From assembly GCF_006345805.1 (NCBI RefSeq), contig NW_021826273.1:1-35880 (forward strand): DNA of 35,880 nt. Direction: 5' to 3'. This stretch comes from Octopus sinensis (Eukaryota). The position numbers and the translations under genes were made by a program. Positions 5,383-32,909 of this stretch are shown here, one piece after another (position 1 is the first letter of the stretch; each line of letters opens with the position of its first letter). The notes beneath the pieces are model-generated. The model saw only the letters and a list, made by a program, of their open reading frames with translations. It searched no databases and was not told the DNA's origin.

Positions 5383-5417
<35 letters not shown>

Positions 5418-5620
5418 TAGGTGAATGAATTATCCTATGTTTATCGTCAGCATGGAAAATTCGTTGAACCGAAACCTGGGTAGCGAATTCACGTCAGAAA
5501 CACGGTTGAAGCGACCTGTCCAAATGTAGAAACTCCGGGTTCATGTGCAGAAATTTGTGTTTTGTTTACCATGTAGGCAGTCATCGAAATTTTTGTTCGT
5601 CTTGTTGTCGAGAGAGGCTC

Positions 5621-5713
5621 CCTTTCTTTCCTGATGAGAAGATTGCATAATGCGCCCTTTATTCCTTTGGAATGAAACCATGTTGTCTTCGAAACATATG
5701 TCGAGAGTAAAGG
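5621..5713 (+). ncRNA. Type I hammerhead ribozyme, canonical core, extended helix II
   Basis: Helix I CCTTTCTTTC/GAGAG-T-AAAGG; CTGATGA 5631-37; helix II GAAGATTGCAT/ATGTTGTCTTC with inner hairpin TTTATTCC/GGAATGAA; GAAA 5691-94; palindrome ACATATGT 5694-5701; GUC, cleavage after 5702. Confidence 0.85.
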
Positions 5714-5757
5714 AATTTTGTTAACATCTTCGTTCGACTCCATTCTTTCATTTATTC

Positions 5758-6410
5758 CGCCCGTCGCATCGACCGCACCACCGCCCTGTCTCCTTCCTCT
5801 CACCCACCCACCCAACCGCACCCCCTTCCCCCTCCTTTTCCACCCCTCTACTCTACCCCTTCGTCGCAAGATACTACGTGCCTTCCGTCGCCTCCAGCTT
5901 GATCCCTAACCCACCCCTGTCCTCCTTCAAACGAGCCCGGAATCTACGCGACCTCCTGGTCCACAGCACCCTCTCTCCTTCCCCCTCAGCCTCACACGGA
6001 TCATTCCCTTGCTCTAGATCCCGCTGCAACACTTGCCCCTACATCACCAACACCACTGCTGTCACCGGCTCCAACCGGCGAACTGTACGTATTAGGTACT
6101 CTTTTACGTGCACCTCGTCTGGCCTCATATACTGCATTAAATGCAACCTATGCGGGATGCTGTGTGTAGGACAGACGGGACGCCGGTTGTCCGACCGATT
6201 CACAGAACATTTGAGGGACGTTCGCCTACACTCTTTTTCTCCCGTCGCACGCCACTTCCGCTCGGCCAGCCATTCCCTAGATGACATCTCAGTGTTTGGT
6301 CTCGCCCCCCACAATGGTCGTCCACTTTCTAGGCTCCACTTGGAGCAACGCTACATCTTCACCCTACAAACCACTACCCCACACGGACTTAACACAGCCC
6401 CCTCCTCTAA
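5758..6410 (+). pseudogene. Penelope-like element (Neptune-type) ORF C-terminus: linker plus GIY-YIG endonuclease, 5'-truncated and frameshifted
   Basis: RTPFPLLFHP...LQLDP / PLSSFKRARNLRDLLVHS; linker Cys motif GSFPCSRSRCNTC; LIYCIKCNLCGMLCVGQTGRRLSDRFTEH; VARHF; EQRYIFTLQTTTPHGLN. The YIG position reads CVG. Confidence 0.92.
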
Positions 6411-9807: not shown

Positions 9808-9846
9808 AAGTTCAAATTCCGCCGAGATCGACTTTAACGTTCATCC
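9808..9846 (+). mobile_element. Short fragment of SINE family B
   Basis: AGTTCAAATTCCGCCGAGATCGACTTT matches 25698-25725. Confidence 0.7.
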
Positions 9847-10115
9847 AGTGGTTAGGGCAGCGGACTCGCGGTCGTAGGATCGTGGTCTCGATTCCCAGAC
9901 CGGGTGTTGTGAGTGTTTATTGAGCGGAAACACCAAAAGCCTCACGAGGCAGGGCGCGGTGGCGATCCCTGCTGTACTCTTTCGCCGCAACTTACTCTCA
10001 CTCTTTGTTCTGTTGGCCAGCGGGGTGGCGTCGTTTGAAGGCTAAAACAATGTGAAGCGCATTGTGACCAGCGATGTGTAGCAACATCTGATTCGCCTGG
10101 TCGGCCATGTGATCT
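9847..10115 (+). mobile_element. tRNA-derived SINE family C (5' few nt missing)
   Basis: A-box-like AGTGGTTAGG, anticodon-arm-like region, B-box-like GTCTCGATTCCC, then a non-tRNA GC-rich body. Confidence 0.6.
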
Positions 10116-11861: not shown

Positions 11862-11957
<96 letters not shown>

Positions 11958-12005
11958 TAATAAATTGATTGATAGATTAATAAATTGATTGATAGATAGA
12001 CAGAC

Positions 12006-12090
<85 letters not shown>
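11862..12090. repeat. (GATA)n array
   Basis: Direct. Confidence 0.97.
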
Positions 12091-12091
<1 letters not shown>

Positions 12092-12894
12092 CTTTCTTTT
12101 ATTAGCCACACAGGGCTGAATACAGAGGGGACCAATACAAATGCAGAGCTTTTCTTTTCGAAAGTGGAAAAAAAAGAAAATAAATGTAAGATTGCGATCA
12201 AAAGGGATCGAGAGGAGGAAAAAATTTATCACAGAAATAATTATAAAAAACATTGATAAAACAAGATTGGGTTCATCCGTGGGAAGAAAAGCCAACAGAA
12301 AAGACCACGGGAACCTCAGTCAGGGAGGAAATAACCACATGAGAGCAAAATGCTCTCTCTCTTTCTTTTTTACGATTTACAGGGTCATGCTCAAAATGGT
12401 TTCGTCACTCACACGCACCATCTTTGCAACATTCACCCATCTTTTTTTGAATCTTTCGCGAGACAAAACTTCCCTCTCCATTCTCACCTTCCTTTTCAAG
12501 TGGTATTTGAAAAAGTTGATGATCGATTGGCCAGAGAGGTAAGTGTTTGCCTCTAATCCTTCCGCTCGGGTCCACCACACACATTCTTTCACCATGGCCA
12601 CCAGTACGATGAAAACTGCCTTGCCTTCCCGGTTGTTGGGAAGGGGGCGGAGCAATTCTCACGATAGACTCGACCGATAGGCGAATTCGTCCCACACGTG
12701 ACAGCAGCCGTTCGGCATAAGCCACAGGTCTGAAATGGTTGGACATTGCACGAGTGCGTGCAGAACGGTTTCGTCGCTCTGACCGCATCTCGGGAGAGTC
12801 GGTCCAGTGTGTCTGGAACCCTGTCTGTAGAGCTTATCCCGAACAGGTAATGCTTCTCGATAGCACTGCCAGGCCAGGGATCTTTGGTGATCAC
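12092..12894 (-). mobile_element. 5'-truncated Tx1/L1-clade LINE (ORF2 C-terminus plus 3' UTR) in (GATA)n
   Basis: Minus-strand RDKLY...PRCGQSDETVLHALVQC (zf-RVT-like), AMVKECVWWTR...FFKYHLKRKVRMERE...FKKRW, stop at 12377; 3' end GTGTGGCTAATAAAAGAAA then (TATC)n. Confidence 0.88.
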
Positions 12895-12913: not shown

Positions 12914-13005
<92 letters not shown>

Positions 13006-13010
13006 CAGAC
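12913..13010. repeat. (GATA)n array
   Basis: Direct. Confidence 0.97.
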
Positions 13011-13316
13011 AGGTAGGTTGATATGTTTCTTTATTGGCTACACAGAGGGGACAAAATACAAAGTAGAGCTTTTCTTTTTGGGAAGGAAAAAAAAAAGTGG
13101 GGTAGAATTTCCATCAAAAGGGATCGTGGAAAAAAAAAGAAGCCGATCAATAGGGATGGTGTATCACAGAAATGTCAATGGGAAACAGATTAGGTTTATC
13201 CGTGGACAAAAAAGCCTATGGAAAAGACCACGGTAACCTCGGGCTATAATGTTATGCAAAAAAACACATTACAGTAACTCTTTTTTCCTTTCTTTTTTTG
13301 GTTCATAGGATCATGG

Positions 13317-13925
13317 TCAAGATCTCGACGATCCGACGCGGTTTGTCCAAGTCCACGTTGGCACGTTCGGATGGTCGAGTCGGAACCTGTCAGACAAATG
13401 GAAACGTTTGAGCAGGTCTTTGAGGCTCTTACACCCCCTTCTATTCCTATCCCTTCCCACATAATCTAGATGCGTGTCCAAGGTAGCGTTCCAATCCCCT
13501 ACAAACAGTAAAGGTCTAGACGTACCCAGGAAAACCTCTAGACGTCTGAAGAAATCCGCCCGACCCGTTAAGGACGGTGTATAAACTGCCATCAGACGGA
13601 ATGCACGCCCATTTCTGCCATCCACGTCCAAGACAACCAGCCTACCCTCCGGGTCTAGGAATATTGCTCTTACTTTTACATTTAGACTCTTTCGAAAAAG
13701 CACCGCGGTACCTCCACCACCCATGTTTGGCAGACAGGGAGAAAAATAAATGTCAAATTGATTGCCAAACATGGACTCGAGGGCCCGCGGCTTACTGAGT
13801 CTGGTTTCACTGATAGCTACTATATCCACGTTCAGTGACTTGATGTCGTTTAGAAGGTAACCTTGCTTCCAAGCCGACGCCAAGCCACGCGCATTCACAC
13901 AACCTAATTTAAGCATACTTGACAT
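13317..13925 (-). pseudogene. LINE ORF2 N-terminal APE-type endonuclease, truncated
   Basis: CVNARGL, DIVAISETRL, GTAVLF, DPEGRLVVLD, AVYTPS, VGDWNA, DRFRLDHP, WTW; ends at SRS before the expected LD.. and SDH motifs. Confidence 0.93.
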
Positions 13926-14019
13926 TTACGAAAATTGTGTTTTACACACTACATTAGAAGAGACAAGAGGCAAGAGGGGGAGGTCACTTACTCATTTTAA
14001 AAGTTTCATTTTTTTTCTC

Positions 14020-15818
14020 CTACTTTTGTATTGTTTTGATGAGATGTTTGTATAGTTTTTTCGACAGGTATCGTTGAAACCCGCCTACCGCATTCGGAAA
14101 TATTGTTTTCAGTATGTGGTGTTGTGCTTGTGTTATGTGTAAAATTCTGATGTGTTTCGGTGGTGTGGTGTGCGGATGATTGTTTGTCTTAAAGTCATCT
14201 TCACAGATGACCGTGCTGGATGTGATGTAGTCCATTAATTCTTTATTGTCTGTGTCTATTGCAGTTAGTTGTGTGTGTGGTTTTACGGTTTCATTGCGTT
14301 TCTGATTGTCTAGGGGGATGTTGTCCGGATTTAGATATCTCCCTGCTTTACTTCCTTGTTTGGTGGATTTTGGGGATCTTTTCCTTTTACCCCCTGTGGC
14401 TATTTGCCATTCCGTCGAACTTTCGTCGTCCGACGTATCAGTATGGGGTAGAGGCAAAGCATTTGGGTTCATATGTATGCTTGTAGAAATTGTTGATGTT
14501 TTGTGCGGTGTTTGTGTTGTTGTGGTGTTAGGGGTAGAATTTGTCTTCTCGTCACTGTTTTCTGTCTTTTTAATTGTCGTCCTCGGGGTGTGGGTTGTTG
14601 GTCTATTTTTTGTTGATTCGACATGTTGAGTTGGTTGTGACGTCAACGGGTTTGTGTTGGTATGTTCTTTTTGGTGACGTTGTTGGGGTTTGTTTGCTGG
14701 TTTGTTGTTTTTCTTGGCATTGTTCCATAATTGAGTGTGTTGGCGTTGGTGTTGGTGTTGGCAACAAGGGTTTTTTTATTTGTTTTCTGATTTGTTCTTT
14801 CTTGTTTTTTCTGTACCAGAGCACACTTGGCAATTAAATGTTCGGTGCTGCCACAGTTGTAGCATCTAGGTTTTTTTGCCTTCTGCTATAATATATAGGC
14901 TTTGCCCATTTTCCAAATGGATCTTATCCGGTAGGCTCTTGATAGAGGCCCCCTCAATCTGTATGGTCACCACTATAGTTTTTTCATCCCAATTGTCGTT
15001 TAGGTACACGGCGGTTTCCAAAATATTGATAGTTTTCAAATGATAACAGATTGCCCCTGTTATCCAATTGTTAGGAATGTCGGGGGGTACATTTTTAATA
15101 GTGATTCGACTCACTCTCTGATTTTTGTAGTATGGGACCATGATGATATCATCATTTAACAAAGACTCAGTAGAGTGAGCTTTTGCCACTTCCTGGTTAG
15201 GGAAGCGGACCACTACTGTGTTAAACTGGGGACCCCAGTTTATGTATTCTTTTTCTTTCATTGTTTTTTAAGCATTTTTCTACATCCGTTTTTGTAATCT
15301 GTTCATTTAGTTTTTTGTTTTTTCTTATAATTTTATAAATAATTGTCTTATTTTCTATTTCTTGCTTTATGTGTTTGAGGTGTATGTAGCACTAAATCTT
15401 GCCCTCTGGTTGTAAAGAGAGATCTTGTTTCTAAAAGTTCTTCGTTCGTGAAATGTATAATCTGTTTCTTCTGACGCAGAGTGTCAGCGAAATTTGCTGG
15501 TGCTGTTAATTCTGTTATATTAACATCTTCACTATTAGATAGTTCATTTTTATTGTTGTTCTTGTTGTTGCTGTTGTTTTTGTCAATAGTTTTCGTGTGA
15601 GTTTTATTTTTATCATTTATGTTGGTCGTGGTGGTGGTGGTGGTGGTGGTGGAGGTAGTCTCGTGGTTGCTGTTGTTAGTGGTGGTGGTGGTGGTGGTGA
15701 CAGGGCTGTTACCGCACGTGGTTGCAGCGTTCATACCACCGATATTCATGTTTGCACTTTGCGTGCGTACGTTCTTTTTTCTCCTAGCGTTTTCCAAACT
15801 AGGAAAATGCTGGTCCAT
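14020..15818 (-). pseudogene. LINE ORF1 (RRM-like region plus CCHC zinc knuckle), frameshifted
   Basis: Consecutive minus ORFs 15818-15348, 15261-14866, 14833-14603 and 14646-14020; RITIKNVPPDI motif; CYNCGSTEHLIAKC at 14864-14823 after a slip in an A7 run. Confidence 0.85.
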
Positions 15819-16060
15819 AAAGGAACGCGACCAGCGTTCTTACAATAAAATTTCTCGACATTTTCTAATGTCGAGAAGAAAATTACAGAAATGAAATGGG
15901 GTTGAAACTGCCCCTAGGGGCGAATTCCTCCCTTGGAAAAGCACTCAAACGAAAGTTGGGTGCCTTACACACCTTATTTGCAAAAATGTACACAAAATAT
16001 GGGCTATAAATAGTCAAAATAAACGATTACCTTCGGAGCCGAACTGACATCACGTCCGTC

Positions 16061-16194
<134 letters not shown>

Positions 16195-16233
16195 ATAATT
16201 GATTGGTAGATTGATTGATTGATAGATTGATAG

Positions 16234-16593
16234 ATATGTTTCTTTATTAGCCACACAGGGCTGCACATAGACGGGACAGATTACAAAGTAGACCTCTTCC
16301 TTTGGGGGAGAGAGAAAAAAAGTGGGGTAGGTTTTCGATCAAAATGGATCGTAAAAGGGAAAGAAAAAAAAGAAAAAGAAAAAAACGATCAATAGGGATC
16401 GTATATCACAGAAATGTCATGATGTAAAGTAAAAGCCTACGGAAAAGACAACGGTAACCTCGATCAATAATGTTACTTGTTACCACATTTGTTTGCAAGT
16501 AGGTAACCCCCAGTTTAAGATTTGTCCGAGTTCATAGGATTATGCTCAAGGTGGCTTCGTCATTCATACGTGCCATCCTTGCTACATTCACCC
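16234..16593 (-). mobile_element. Short 5'-truncated Tx1-clade 3' fragment in (GATA)n
   Basis: WVNVARMARMNDEATLSIIL* plus 3' UTR ending GTGTGGCTAATAAAGAAACATATC. Confidence 0.88.
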
Positions 16594-16895
<302 letters not shown>

Positions 16896-25408: not shown

Positions 25409-25627
25409 ACACAAACCATATGCACATCTCTCAGATGTTTACAGACACATGCAGATACACATACATATACATGCACAAAGCGCACACAGACGCGCGCGCG
25501 CACACACTCACAAACACACACACACACCAGACTTCAATCAGTGAATCCGATACATCTTCATTAGTTATTATTATTATTATTATTATTTTTTCTTCTCATC
25601 ATCATCATTATTATTATTATTATTATT

Positions 25628-26040
25628 GGCGAGCTGGCAGAAACGTTAAGCACGCCGGGCGAAATGCTTAGCGGTATTTCGTCTGCCGTTACGTTCTGAG
25701 TTCAAATTCCGCCGAGGTCGACTTTGCCATTCATCCCTTCGGGGTCGATAAATATAGTACCAGTTACGCACTGGGGTCGATGTAATCGACTTAATCCGTT
25801 TGTCTGTCCTTGTTTGTCCCCTCTGTGTTTAGCCCGTTGTGGGTAGTAAATAAATAGGTATTTCGTCTGCCGTTACGCTCTGAGTTCAAATTCCGCCGAG
25901 GTCGACTTTGCCTTTCATCCTTTCGGGGTCGATAAATAAAGTACCAGTTACGCACTGGGGTCGATGTGATCAACTTAATACGTATATCTGTCCTTGTTTG
26001 TCCTCTCTATGTTTAGCCCCTTGTGGGTAATAACGAAACA
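25628..26040 (+). mobile_element. tRNA-derived SINE family B dimer (full unit plus headless unit from 25857), in (TTA)n
   Basis: A-box-like TGGCAGAAACG, B box GAGTTCAAATTCC, body GCCTTTCATCCTTTCGGGGTCGATAAA, tail GTCCCCTCTGTGTTTAGCCC..TGTGGGTAATAA. Confidence 0.9.
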
Positions 26041-26049
26041 AATTATTAT

Positions 26050-26102
<53 letters not shown>

Positions 26103-26290
26103 AGGTGGCGAGTTGACAGAATCATTAAGCAAGCCGGGCGAAATGCTTAGAAGTATTTCAGCCGTCGCTACGTTCTGAGTTCAAATTCCGCCGAGGTCGA
26201 CTTCGCCTTTCATCTTTCGAGGTCGATAAATCAGTACCAGTTACGCATTGAGGTCGATGTAATCGACTTAATCTACTCCCCCCAAGCTAC
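26103..26290 (+). mobile_element. SINE family B monomer lacking the Tx1-like tail
   Basis: Homologous to 25628-25795, then diverges after ATCGACTTAATC. Confidence 0.85.
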
Positions 26291-26322
26291 AATTGTGGAA
26301 AAAAAAATTTGAAATCATCATT

Positions 26323-26324
26323 AT

Positions 26325-26381
<57 letters not shown>

Positions 26382-26435
26382 TACTACTACTTCTACTTCT
26401 ACTACTACTACTACTACTACTACTACTGCTACTAC
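26323..26435. repeat. (CTA)n microsatellite (complementary to (TAG)n at 26050-26101)
   Basis: Direct. Confidence 0.95.
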
Positions 26436-32215: not shown

Positions 32216-32336
32216 TATATATGGAACTTCCGTTCGACGGCACTTACCCAAGCCAGCTGTTTGCTAGTTTCACTTCCCACCCTTCCGCGCTTGACCTCAA
32301 AGAATCGTTTCTTCGTAGAGCTACTGAAACTTGTAG

Positions 32337-32747
32337 GTGAGCAAACAGAAACGTTAGCACGCCGAGCGAAATGCTTAGCGGTATTTCGTCTGCCGCTACG
32401 TTCCGAGTGCAAATTCCGCCGAGGTCGATTTTGCCTTTCATCCTTTTGGGGTCGATTAAATAAGTACCAGTTACGCACCAGGGTCGATATAATCGACTTG
32501 ATCCGTTTGTCTGTCTTTGTCTTCTCTGTGTTTAGCCCCTTTAGGGTAGTAAAGAAATAGATATTCGGTCTGCCGCTTCGTTCTGAGTTCAAATTCCGCC
32601 GAGGTCGACTTTGCCTTTCATCCTTTCGGAGTCGATTAAATAAGTACCAGTTACGCACTGGGGTTGATATAATCGACTTAATCCCTTTGTCTATCCTTGT
32701 TTGTCCCTTCTATGATTAGTCCCTTGTGAGCAATAAAGAAATATCCA
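32337..32747 (+). mobile_element. SINE family B dimer with 14-bp target-site duplication
   Basis: Homologous to 25628-26040; ACTGAAACTTGTAG at 32323-32336 and 32748-32761. Confidence 0.9.
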
Positions 32748-32909
32748 ACTGAAACTTGTAGTTATGCTTTCATTTGATCAAAGAGAGACTGTCTCCCCTT
32801 ATGAAAGCTGGACACCCAGGTTTGCCATTCCATTATTTTTAAATTCTTTTATTCTTTTATGCGTTTCAGCCATGCGGCGACTGTGGTCATGAAATATGAA
32901 AGAAATTCT

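What the first reader, a model, noticed from the sequence alone, without database searches (positions are those of the whole stretch)
25810..25856. tRNA-SINE B carries the 3' tail of the Tx1-clade LINE
Seen: SINE tail TTGTTTGTCCCCTCTGTGTTTAGCCCGTTGTGGGTAGTAAATAAATA versus LINE end (minus 12140-12092) TTGTATTGGTCCCCTCTGTATTCAGCCCTGTGTGGCTAATAAAAGAAAG. It is repeated in all four dimer units but absent from the 26103 monomer. Established: shared 3' tails identify stringent SINE-LINE partners, usually CR1/L2/RTE, whereas mammalian L1 recognises poly(A). Inference: a Tx1-mobilised SINE that may inherit microsatellite targeting. The 25628 copy is in (TTA)n, but the 32337 copy is not in a repeat.
Basis: partly seen in the sequence, partly recalled or inferred. 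Interest (0 to 1): 0.75.

Follow-up and report, generated by a model that had tools for sequence, protein, structure and literature searches.

The report
Octopus SINE shares Tx1-like LINE tail
An abundant short repeat (SINE) of this octopus-like genome ends in the same ~45-base tail as a group of young Tx1-like LINEs that sit in (TATC)n microsatellites, so it is likely copied by their enzyme, yet the SINE copies themselves do not land in that microsatellite.

Summary
Window 25810-25856 and the LINE end at 12140-12092 (minus) read as quoted. On majority sequences of 27 SINE and 29 LINE copies the tails match at 36 of 43 positions. No shuffle of 5000 reached that score, and the match ends at the 3' terminus of both elements.

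The LINE is 6.2 kb. Its ORF2 has an APE endonuclease, a reverse transcriptase and a C-terminal zinc-binding (zf-RVT) domain. It scores 322 bits against Xenopus Tx1 ORF2 and 200 bits against human L1 ORF2p. Families A, B and D/E all carry the tail and sit in (TATC)n. I made no formal tree.

The targeting inference fails. None of 54 terminal SINE junctions lies in (TATC)n. Copies have ordinary 8-20 bp target duplications that often start GGTA, AGAA or TATA.

The closest tail belongs to an old 1.9-kb element without a reverse transcriptase (41 of 45). The 26103 copy is not tail-less: it carries a second tail type ending in (ATT)n.

Verdict: a real SINE-LINE tail pair, and a new member of a known kind. 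Mobilisation is inferred. No paper found in the text searches describes it; Repbase and Dfam were not checked.

The parts
25628..26041 (+). SINE with tail T1, dimer: head 25628-25672, unit 1 25673-25856, unit 2 25857-26041. It lies between (ATT)n and ATTATTATT(TAG)n.
   Evidence: (period 184, 2 copies, 92% matches)
25810..25856 (+). T1 tail of unit 1, the finding itself
25994..26041 (+). T1 tail of unit 2
32337..32743 (+). Second T1 SINE dimer. The whole dimer is flanked by the 14-bp target duplication ACTGAAACTTGTAG (32323-32336 and 32748-32761). Tails lie at about 32516-32559 and 32692-32743.
26103..26316 (+). SINE with the same head and body but another tail (type T3), which runs into ATT/TAC repeats
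12092..12891 (-). 5'-truncated copy of LINE family A: end of ORF2 with the zinc-binding motif, the 3' UTR, and the tail at 12092-12140. (TATC)n lies on both sides.
   Evidence: 94% identity to positions 5413-6227 of the full-length copy
13020..16060 (-). Diverged, internally deleted LINE of the same group: 5' end, ORF1 with a CCHC knuckle, and the APE endonuclease joined directly to a 3' UTR, with no RT. The tail lies at about 13020-13062 and has a 12-nt deletion.
16239..16600 (-). Third LINE 3' end (family B type): last ORF2 codons, 3' UTR and tail at 16239-16290
11862..12090 (.). (TATC)n array directly 3' of the family A tail. Further arrays at 12914-13009, 16061-16236 and 16594-16684 separate the LINE pieces.

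Best explanation
The last ~45 nt of this abundant SINE subfamily (tail T1) are homologous to the 3' terminus of a group of young Tx1-like LINEs in the same genome, and the SINE RNA is likely reverse-transcribed in trans by their ORF2 protein through recognition of that shared tail. Shown: the tails are co-terminal and similar at consensus level. The LINE group (families A, B and D/E; 6.2 kb; ORF1 with a CCHC knuckle; ORF2 with APE, RT and zf-RVT) holds many copies with an open ORF2 and is flanked by (TATC)n. The SINE has 8-20 bp target duplications that abut the tail directly, with no poly(A) and no microsatellite of its own. A 4-bp hairpin with loop CUUGU(G) sits at the same place in every tail class. 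Inferred: the hairpin is the recognition element, and the LINE group, not a lost relative, is the mobiliser. Also inferred: the integration site is set partly by pairing of the nicked target with the RNA just 3' of the tail. That RNA would be (UAUC)n in the LINE. In SINE multimer RNA it would be GGUAU or AGAAA. This would explain why the LINEs are confined to (TATC)n while the SINE is dispersed.
For: Tail similarity: 36/43 to family A, 38/50 to family B, 41/45 to family C; 0 of 5000 shuffles reach the score, and the match is co-terminal within the whole LINE. The LINE is autonomous and young: a 1138-aa open ORF2 with Exo_endo_phos, RVT_1 and zf-RVT, and 27 of the 40 best ORF2 matches in the genome have no stop. 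All 20 ORF2-bearing loci examined (2 family A, 11 family B, 7 family D/E) end in the tail core AGCCCTGTGTGGCTA (one E copy, L165, with two substitutions), followed by TATC repeats. The SINE is abundant and of moderate age: 47 full T1 units in a random 800 kb, median 6.4% from their majority sequence. This is near the SINE and LINE expansion at JC 0.065 reported for O. vulgaris (PMC13282606, passages read). SINE copies end at ...GTAAAGAAATA followed directly by the TSD. Hairpin: 88% of cells paired over 19 tails of 7 classes, 3 of 4 pairs changed on both sides, 0 of 500 shuffles as high, slid controls at most 54%. Junction bias: GGTA 13/54, AGAA 8/54 and TATA 7/54, against backgrounds of 0.25%, 0.7% and 2.1%. 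These starts are the first bases of the TSD in copies such as L035, L037, L051, L056, L057 and L058.
Against: Targets differ. The LINEs have (TATC)n at the 3' junction (at least 11 units in the next 60 nt in 22 of 30 copies, 1-5 units in 7, none in 1 truncated copy) and at the 5' end of 3 of 3 full-length copies. The SINE has 0 of 54 junctions in (TATC)n. If the endonuclease alone set the target, as is usually held for Tx1 elements (PMC4494074, passages read), the SINE should share it. The nearest tail belongs to an old RT-less family, about 22-29% diverged between copies, so the tail may have come from an older lineage. The SINE stem uses a register shifted by one base relative to the LINE stem. 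The hairpin has only 4 bp, and the fold energies are not better than shuffles (z -0.03 to -1.25). The covariation counts rest on a few related families, not on independent events. No experiment was possible.
Confidence: 0.6

Rival explanations
1. The tail is a shared module inherited from an older LINE lineage. The T1 SINE is, or was, mobilised by a different autonomous LINE that does not target (TATC)n, for example the unidentified driver of the 1.9-kb family C. The (TATC)n LINEs would then be only cousins.
For: Family C has the closest and longest match to the SINE tail (41/45, with the extra upstream TTTGTCTGTCCTTG). It also ends ...AAATAAAGAAAT next to unique DNA, as the SINE does. The SINE and family C both avoid (TATC)n.
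Against: No autonomous LINE with such a tail was found. Exact family C tail words occur only 5 times in 2.7 Gb. Family C copies are 71-78% identical to the query copy, much older than the SINE burst at a median 6.4%. The only young RT-coding elements seen with this tail type are families A, B and D/E. The search for other families was not exhaustive.
Confidence: 0.27
2. The transfer went the other way: an ancestor of the LINE group captured a SINE 3' fragment into its 3' UTR, and the tail has no role in recognition.
For: Sequence similarity alone does not give a direction. The same SINE body carries at least three tail types.
Against: The tail sits exactly at the 3' terminus of four RT-coding families that are only 80-83% identical in ORF2 protein. 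Its hairpin core AGCCCTGTGTGGCTA is kept while the rest of the 3' UTR diverges, which points to selection in the LINE.
Confidence: 0.08
3. Chance or low-complexity similarity.
For: Both tails are T- and A-rich and short.
Against: 0 of 5000 shuffles reach the score, the match is 3'-terminal in both elements, and it holds on family majority sequences.
Confidence: 0.01

Closest known systems
Stringent SINE-LINE pairs that share a 3' tail, such as eel UnaSINE1 with UnaL2 (Kajikawa and Okada 2002, cited in PMC4494074 and PMC4824008; I read only the citing passages)
   Same: A non-autonomous element with a promoter-bearing head carries the unique 3' terminus of a LINE in the same genome. The tail holds a small hairpin, there is no poly(A), and TSDs are present.
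   Different: Those partners are L2, CR1 or RTE LINEs. Here the partner is Tx1-like (L1 superfamily) and microsatellite-specific, and the SINE does not share its target.
L1-clade stringent pairs: maize and sorghum SINEs with LINE1-1_ZM, and Chlamydomonas SINEX-3_CR with L1-1_CR (Ohshima 2012, PMC3472496, passages read)
   Same: A SINE shares a structured 3' end with an L1-superfamily LINE. That survey found this in only 3 of 58 pairs.
   Different: Those are plant or algal L1 elements ending in poly(A). This is an animal Tx1-like group that abuts (TATC)n.
Crocodilian SINEU and Tx1-Mar (Kojima 2015, PMC4494074; abstract, section 16 and passages read)
   Same: A SINE proposed to be mobilised by Tx1-clade LINEs.
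   Different: That link rests on a shared target (the Mariner-N4_AMi transposon) and on shared U1 or U2 heads, and SINEU ends in poly(A). Here the link is a shared unique tail, and the target is not shared.
Microsatellite-specific Tx1 elements: Kibi at (TC)n, Koshi at (TTC)n, and crocodilian families at (TTCC)n or (TTTC)n (as described in PMC4494074)
   Same: An APE-type Tx1-like LINE flanked on both sides by one microsatellite.
   Different: The repeat here is (TATC)n. TATC and GATA do not occur in the main text of PMC4494074; its supplements and Repbase were not seen.

Membership tests
SINE-LINE pair with shared 3' tail (stringent type) | 3'-terminal sequence similarity, co-terminal in both elements, at family consensus level | tested here: met
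   36/43 identity, 0 of 5000 shuffles, best local match 3'-terminal in both
SINE-LINE pair with shared 3' tail (stringent type) | Conserved stem-loop in the tail | tested here: inconclusive
   A 4-bp hairpin at the same place in all classes, 88% of cells paired, 3 of 4 pairs covary. The LINE and SINE use registers one base apart, and fold z-scores are weak.
SINE-LINE pair with shared 3' tail (stringent type) | Overlapping periods of activity in the same genome | tested here: inconclusive
   SINE units have a median 6.4% divergence. 27 of 40 LINE ORF2 matches are open, and the 30 best-matching family A 3' ends are 94-100% identical to the full-length reference copy. No unbiased LINE age distribution was made.
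SINE-LINE pair with shared 3' tail (stringent type) | Shared insertion-site preference | tested here: not met
   LINE in (TATC)n; SINE 0 of 54 in (TATC)n. Both junction types hold a TAT core, which is only a weak likeness.
SINE-LINE pair with shared 3' tail (stringent type) | Trans-mobilisation shown by experiment | not testable with these tools
   None
Tx1 clade (L1 superfamily) of non-LTR retrotransposons | ORF2 with an N-terminal APE endonuclease, an RT and a C-terminal zinc-binding domain | tested here: met
   Exo_endo_phos 14-215, RVT_1 501-750, zf-RVT 971-1024. The best solved relative is human L1 ORF2p at E 5e-58, against R2 at 5e-20.
Tx1 clade (L1 superfamily) of non-LTR retrotransposons | RT phylogeny places it with Tx1 rather than L1 | tested here: inconclusive
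   Pairwise phmmer only: 322 bits to Xenopus Tx1 ORF2, 200 bits to human L1, and 263 bits between Tx1 and L1.
Tx1 clade (L1 superfamily) of non-LTR retrotransposons | Target-specific insertion | tested here: met
   (TATC)n on both sides of 3 of 3 full-length copies. 29 of 30 3' junctions start (T)TATC or ATATC. One copy outside an array has the TSD TTATCTCTT (L010).
tRNA-derived SINE | Head recognisable as a tRNA | tested here: inconclusive
   ARAGORN found 0 genes in the window. Rfam found no tRNA match at E <= 1 in 25500-26400. GAGTTCAAATTCC resembles a B box, but that consensus is recalled and was not tested.
tRNA-derived SINE | Short, non-coding, high copy number, flanked by TSDs | tested here: met
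   229-nt monomer, 2454 first-look candidates, 47 units per 800 kb, TSDs of 8-20 bp

The most novel reading that the evidence does not exclude
In this Tx1-like group the integration site is chosen by base pairing between the nicked target and the RNA just 3' of a tail hairpin that the enzyme binds. It is not chosen by the endonuclease alone. One enzyme would then give a strictly (TATC)n-bound LINE, whose RNA ends in (UAUC)n, and a dispersed SINE whose TSDs start GGTA or AGAA. Those are the very bases that follow the tail in SINE multimers (junctions at SINE positions 46 and 12). The other SINE tails that end in (ATT)n would be the same hairpin re-tuned to a sister enzyme.
Probability: 0.22. 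Interest if true: 0.72.

Novelty: new member of a known kind. Interest (0 to 1): 0.45.

Why it matters
Sharing of a 3' tail is the standard sign of which LINE drives a SINE. A Tx1-like driver would be an uncommon case: in a 2012 survey only 3 of 58 tail-sharing pairs involved L1-type LINEs (PMC3472496). The pair also offers a natural test of how microsatellite-specific LINEs pick their sites, because the same tail travels with and without the (TATC)n target.

Tried and rejected
1. Earlier notes of this scan, looked up by place, by sequence and by words, gave nothing.

2. The ESM Atlas look-up of ORF2 gave only the generic endonuclease plus RT name, with no clade.

3. The first homology search gave almost no names. 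A bridging search with a turtle hit (P0092) recovered the Swiss-Prot Xenopus Tx1 protein (P0186).

4. I took family C (found by chance in the random sample at L070/L144) for a third LINE. It has no similarity to ORF2 and no Pfam domain in 8 frames. It ends at a fixed 5' boundary about 1.87 kb from the tail, so I now treat it as a non-autonomous element.

5. I looked for a LINE that carries the T2 or T3 tails. All 79 sites in 800 kb are SINE-associated, so no partner was found.

6. tRNA detection on the SINE head failed.

7. Kojima 2018 (PMC5786205) has no mention of Tx1, octopus or OBi in the main text or in the one held supplement.

8. A formal RT tree was not made, because no L1-clade reference was available as a stored sequence.

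Full report
**What is at the coordinates.** Window 25810-25856 reads TTGTTTGTCCCCTCTGTGTTTAGCCCGTTGTGGGTAGTAAATAAATA. The minus strand at 12140-12092 reads TTGTATTGGTCCCCTCTGTATTCAGCCCTGTGTGGCTAATAAAAGAAAG, followed by (TATC)n.

The first string is the end of unit 1 of a SINE at 25628-26041. This SINE has a 45-nt head and two tandem 184-nt units. A second dimer lies at 32337-32743, and the whole dimer is flanked by the 14-bp duplication ACTGAAACTTGTAG.

A motif from the tail, with up to 3 mismatches, hits three of the four SINE units and two LINE ends. Shuffles of the window gave none. The fourth unit is more decayed.

**Is the similarity more than chance?** The window is contig C2744 of a 2.72-Gb, microsatellite-rich assembly. 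I fetched the 30 best genomic matches of the LINE 3' region and of the SINE monomer.
- Majority sequences of 27 of 30 SINE copies with a complete tail and of 29 LINE tails (29 of the 30 LINE loci) align over 43 columns with 36 matches.
- Five thousand shuffles of the SINE tail scored 13.8 +/- 2.4, maximum 29, against the observed 49.
- Aligned to a whole 6227-nt LINE on both strands, the 229-nt SINE matches best at SINE 186-223 with LINE 6184-6221, the 3' terminus of both. The score is 46, against 26 for anything else.

**The LINE.** Other copies continue upstream of the truncated window copy. Three long copies share a 6.2-kb body that begins GACGGACGTGCTGTCA and ends ...AATAAAAGAAAG, with (TATC)n on both sides.
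- One copy has a 1138-aa open ORF2 with Exo_endo_phos, RVT_1 and zf-RVT domains.
- The window's own copy shows an ORF1 with a CCHC knuckle.
- Among solved structures, human L1 ORF2p is the best match (E 5e-58, 200 bits, across endonuclease and RT). R2 proteins are far weaker.
- A bridging search recovered the Swiss-Prot Xenopus Tx1 ORF2 (P0186). The octopus ORF2 scores 322 bits against it. Tx1 against human L1 scores 263 bits.

These scores, the architecture and the site-specific insertion fit the Tx1 side of the L1 superfamily. Two published cephalopod repeat annotations list L1-Tx1 among their LINE classes (PMC13282606 and PMC8967140, passages read). I made no tree, because no L1 reference was held as a stored sequence.

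**LINE families and target.** A protein search of the genome returned 40 ORF2 matches, 27 of them without a stop. The 20 loci fetched fall into four sets:
- family A (2 loci, 97-98% protein identity to the reference ORF2);
- family B (11 loci, 83%);
- families D and E (7 loci, 80-81%).

All end in the core AGCCCTGTGTGGCTA (one E copy, L165, with two substitutions), then an A-rich stretch, then TATC repeats.

Of the 30 family A 3' junctions, 22 have at least 11 TATC units in the next 60 nt, 7 have 1-5 units, and 1 has a truncated tail. One 5'-truncated copy outside an array has the duplication TTATCTCTT (L010). So the TTATC after the tail comes from the target.

The window holds a chain of such pieces, separated by (TATC)n arrays:
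- family A, 12092-12891;
- an internally deleted, RT-less relative, 13020-16060;
- a family B type 3' end, 16239-16600.

**The SINE in an unbiased sample.** I took 80 random 10-kb stretches, 800 kb in all.
- They hold 63 tail sites. Four are LINE tails of family B type, and 59 score better as the SINE type; one of those 59 is family C, described below.
- Of the 59, 25 are internal junctions of multimers: 21 join to SINE position 46, 3 to position 12, and 1 to about position 39.
- A further 29 are terminal and 5 are truncated or other. A few of the 29 'terminal' junctions may in fact lead into diverged units.
- The sample holds 47 full units, with a median 6.4% divergence from their majority sequence. 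By extrapolation that is on the order of 10^5 units in the genome.

**Where the SINE lands.** I pooled 25 of the best genomic copies with the 29 terminal junctions of the sample, 54 in all.
- None has TATCTATC within 12 nt of the tail.
- The flank starts GGTA in 13, AGAA in 8 and TATA in 7. The backgrounds are 0.25%, 0.7% and 2.1%.
- Position 4 of the flank is A in 46 of 54.
- In 16 of the 26 best copies examined an exact duplication of 6-20 bp was found. In copies such as L035, L037, L051, L056, L057 and L058 it begins with these bases, so they belong to the target.
- A few junctions lie in (ATT)n or (TA)n. The window's 25628 copy in (ATT)n is one such case.

The SINE therefore does not inherit the LINE's (TATC)n target. 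This is the main result against the proposed partnership, if the endonuclease alone sets the target.

**Closest tail.** One site in the sample (L070, minus strand) has no SINE body, yet it matches the SINE further upstream than the LINE does. It belongs to an old family: copies are 71-78% identical to the query.
- The family is about 1.87 kb long with a fixed 5' boundary.
- It has no similarity to ORF2 and no Pfam domain in 8 frames.
- Its tail matches the SINE at 41 of 45 positions and ends ...AAATAAAGAAAT next to unique DNA.
- Exact words of that tail occur only 5 times in the genome.

The tail is thus a module shared by four RT-coding families, one non-autonomous long element and the SINE. 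By sequence the SINE is nearest to the old element.

**Other tails on the same SINE body.** In the sample, 140 SINE bodies reach position 160 or beyond. Besides T1 there are two related tails:
- T2: ...CAGGCCTTGTGCCTAKAGTAGAAA...
- T3: ...TGGCCTTGTGCCAAAATTTGAAA...

Many of these run into (ATT)n. There are 79 such sites, all SINE-associated. The window copy at 26103 is T3-like, so it is not tail-less.

**Hairpin.** Folding predicts a 4-bp hairpin at the same place in the SINE, family A, family B and family C tails. The energies are no better than shuffles (z -0.03 to -1.25).

I aligned 19 natural tails of seven classes.
- The helix at columns 39-42 with 48-51 pairs in 88% of cells, and 3 of 4 pairs change on both sides. 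No shuffle of 500 reached this, and slid controls reached at most 54%.
- The LINEs and family C fit better one base to the left.
- Family C changes A-U to G-C at the outer pair. T1 against T2 and T3 swaps C-G for G-C at two pairs, while the loop CUUGU is kept.

This is suggestive of a recognition hairpin. It rests, however, on few and related families and on a very short helix.

**Mechanism proposed.** Shown: a shared, co-terminal tail; young, open-frame LINEs; SINE copies with TSDs and no poly(A); and a dimer flanked as a whole by one TSD.

Inferred: the LINE's ORF2 protein binds the tail hairpin of the SINE RNA and starts reverse transcription there. The non-random TSD starts equal the bases that follow the tail inside multimers (GGTAT at position 46, AGAAAC at position 12). 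This suggests that the nicked target pairs with the RNA just 3' of the tail. With (UAUC)n in that place, the LINE would be held to (TATC)n. This last step is speculative.

**Comparison with what is known.**
- Tail sharing is the classical sign of stringent SINE-LINE pairs (reviewed in PMC3747384 and PMC4824008, passages read).
- L1-type partners were rare in a 2012 survey, 3 of 58 (PMC3472496, passages read).
- A Tx1-SINE link has been proposed for crocodilian SINEU. It rests on a shared target and shared heads, and SINEU ends in poly(A) (PMC4494074; abstract, section 16 and passages read).
- Text searches for Tx1, SINE and octopus, for SINE partner terms, and for Tx1 with SINE tail and microsatellite terms found no paper that names a LINE partner for octopus SINEs.
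- Repbase Reports, Repbase and Dfam entries, and the supplements of PMC13282606 and PMC4494074 were not seen. They may already hold this pair.

**Verdict.** This is a real feature and a new member of a known kind, with one unexpected trait: the tail is shared but the target is not. The interest is moderate.

Noticed in passing
window 25856/25857 and 32559/32560; L066, L079, L132, L140 and others: SINE multimers. In 800 kb of random sequence, 25 of 59 T1 tails are internal junctions: 21 join to SINE position 46 (GGTATTTCG), 3 to position 12 (AGAAACG) and 1 to about position 39. The window's second dimer has one TSD around the whole dimer, so it was made before or during integration.
   Followed up: partly
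window 26103-26316; L113:9640-9698, L121:6714-6772 and others: The same SINE head and body carry two further tail types (T2, T3) with a GGCC-CUUGU-GCC hairpin, many running into (ATT)n. There are 79 such sites per 800 kb, against 59 for T1. No LINE carrying these tails was found.
   Followed up: partly
L144:229-2100 (minus strand); L157: An old non-autonomous family, about 1.87 kb long, with no RT and no Pfam domain. Its 3' tail is the closest match to the SINE tail (41 of 45). A minority of copies (L147, L150; by eye also L152) share a further stretch of about 95 nt past the tail.
   Followed up: partly
window 13020-16060 (minus strand): An internally deleted LINE copy. It has ORF1 with a CCHC knuckle and the APE endonuclease joined directly to the 3' UTR at about 13322. 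The RT is missing, and the tail has a 12-nt deletion.
   Followed up: partly
window 9808-10100: A 25-nt fragment of the SINE B-box region is followed by a different repeat with its own B-box-like GGTCTCGATTCCCAGACC. This is probably another SINE family.
   Followed up: no
G000, 40 places listed: 27 of the 40 best ORF2 matches of this LINE group are open over about 1100-1185 codons, so the group looks recently active. The first look gave 59,047 candidates.
   Followed up: partly
5' flanks of L035-L061: Between the TSD and the SINE start as I defined it (GGCGAGCTGG) lie 3-8 further bases, usually (A)AGGC. The true 5' end of the SINE therefore lies a few bases upstream, and the window copies lack these bases.
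   Followed up: no
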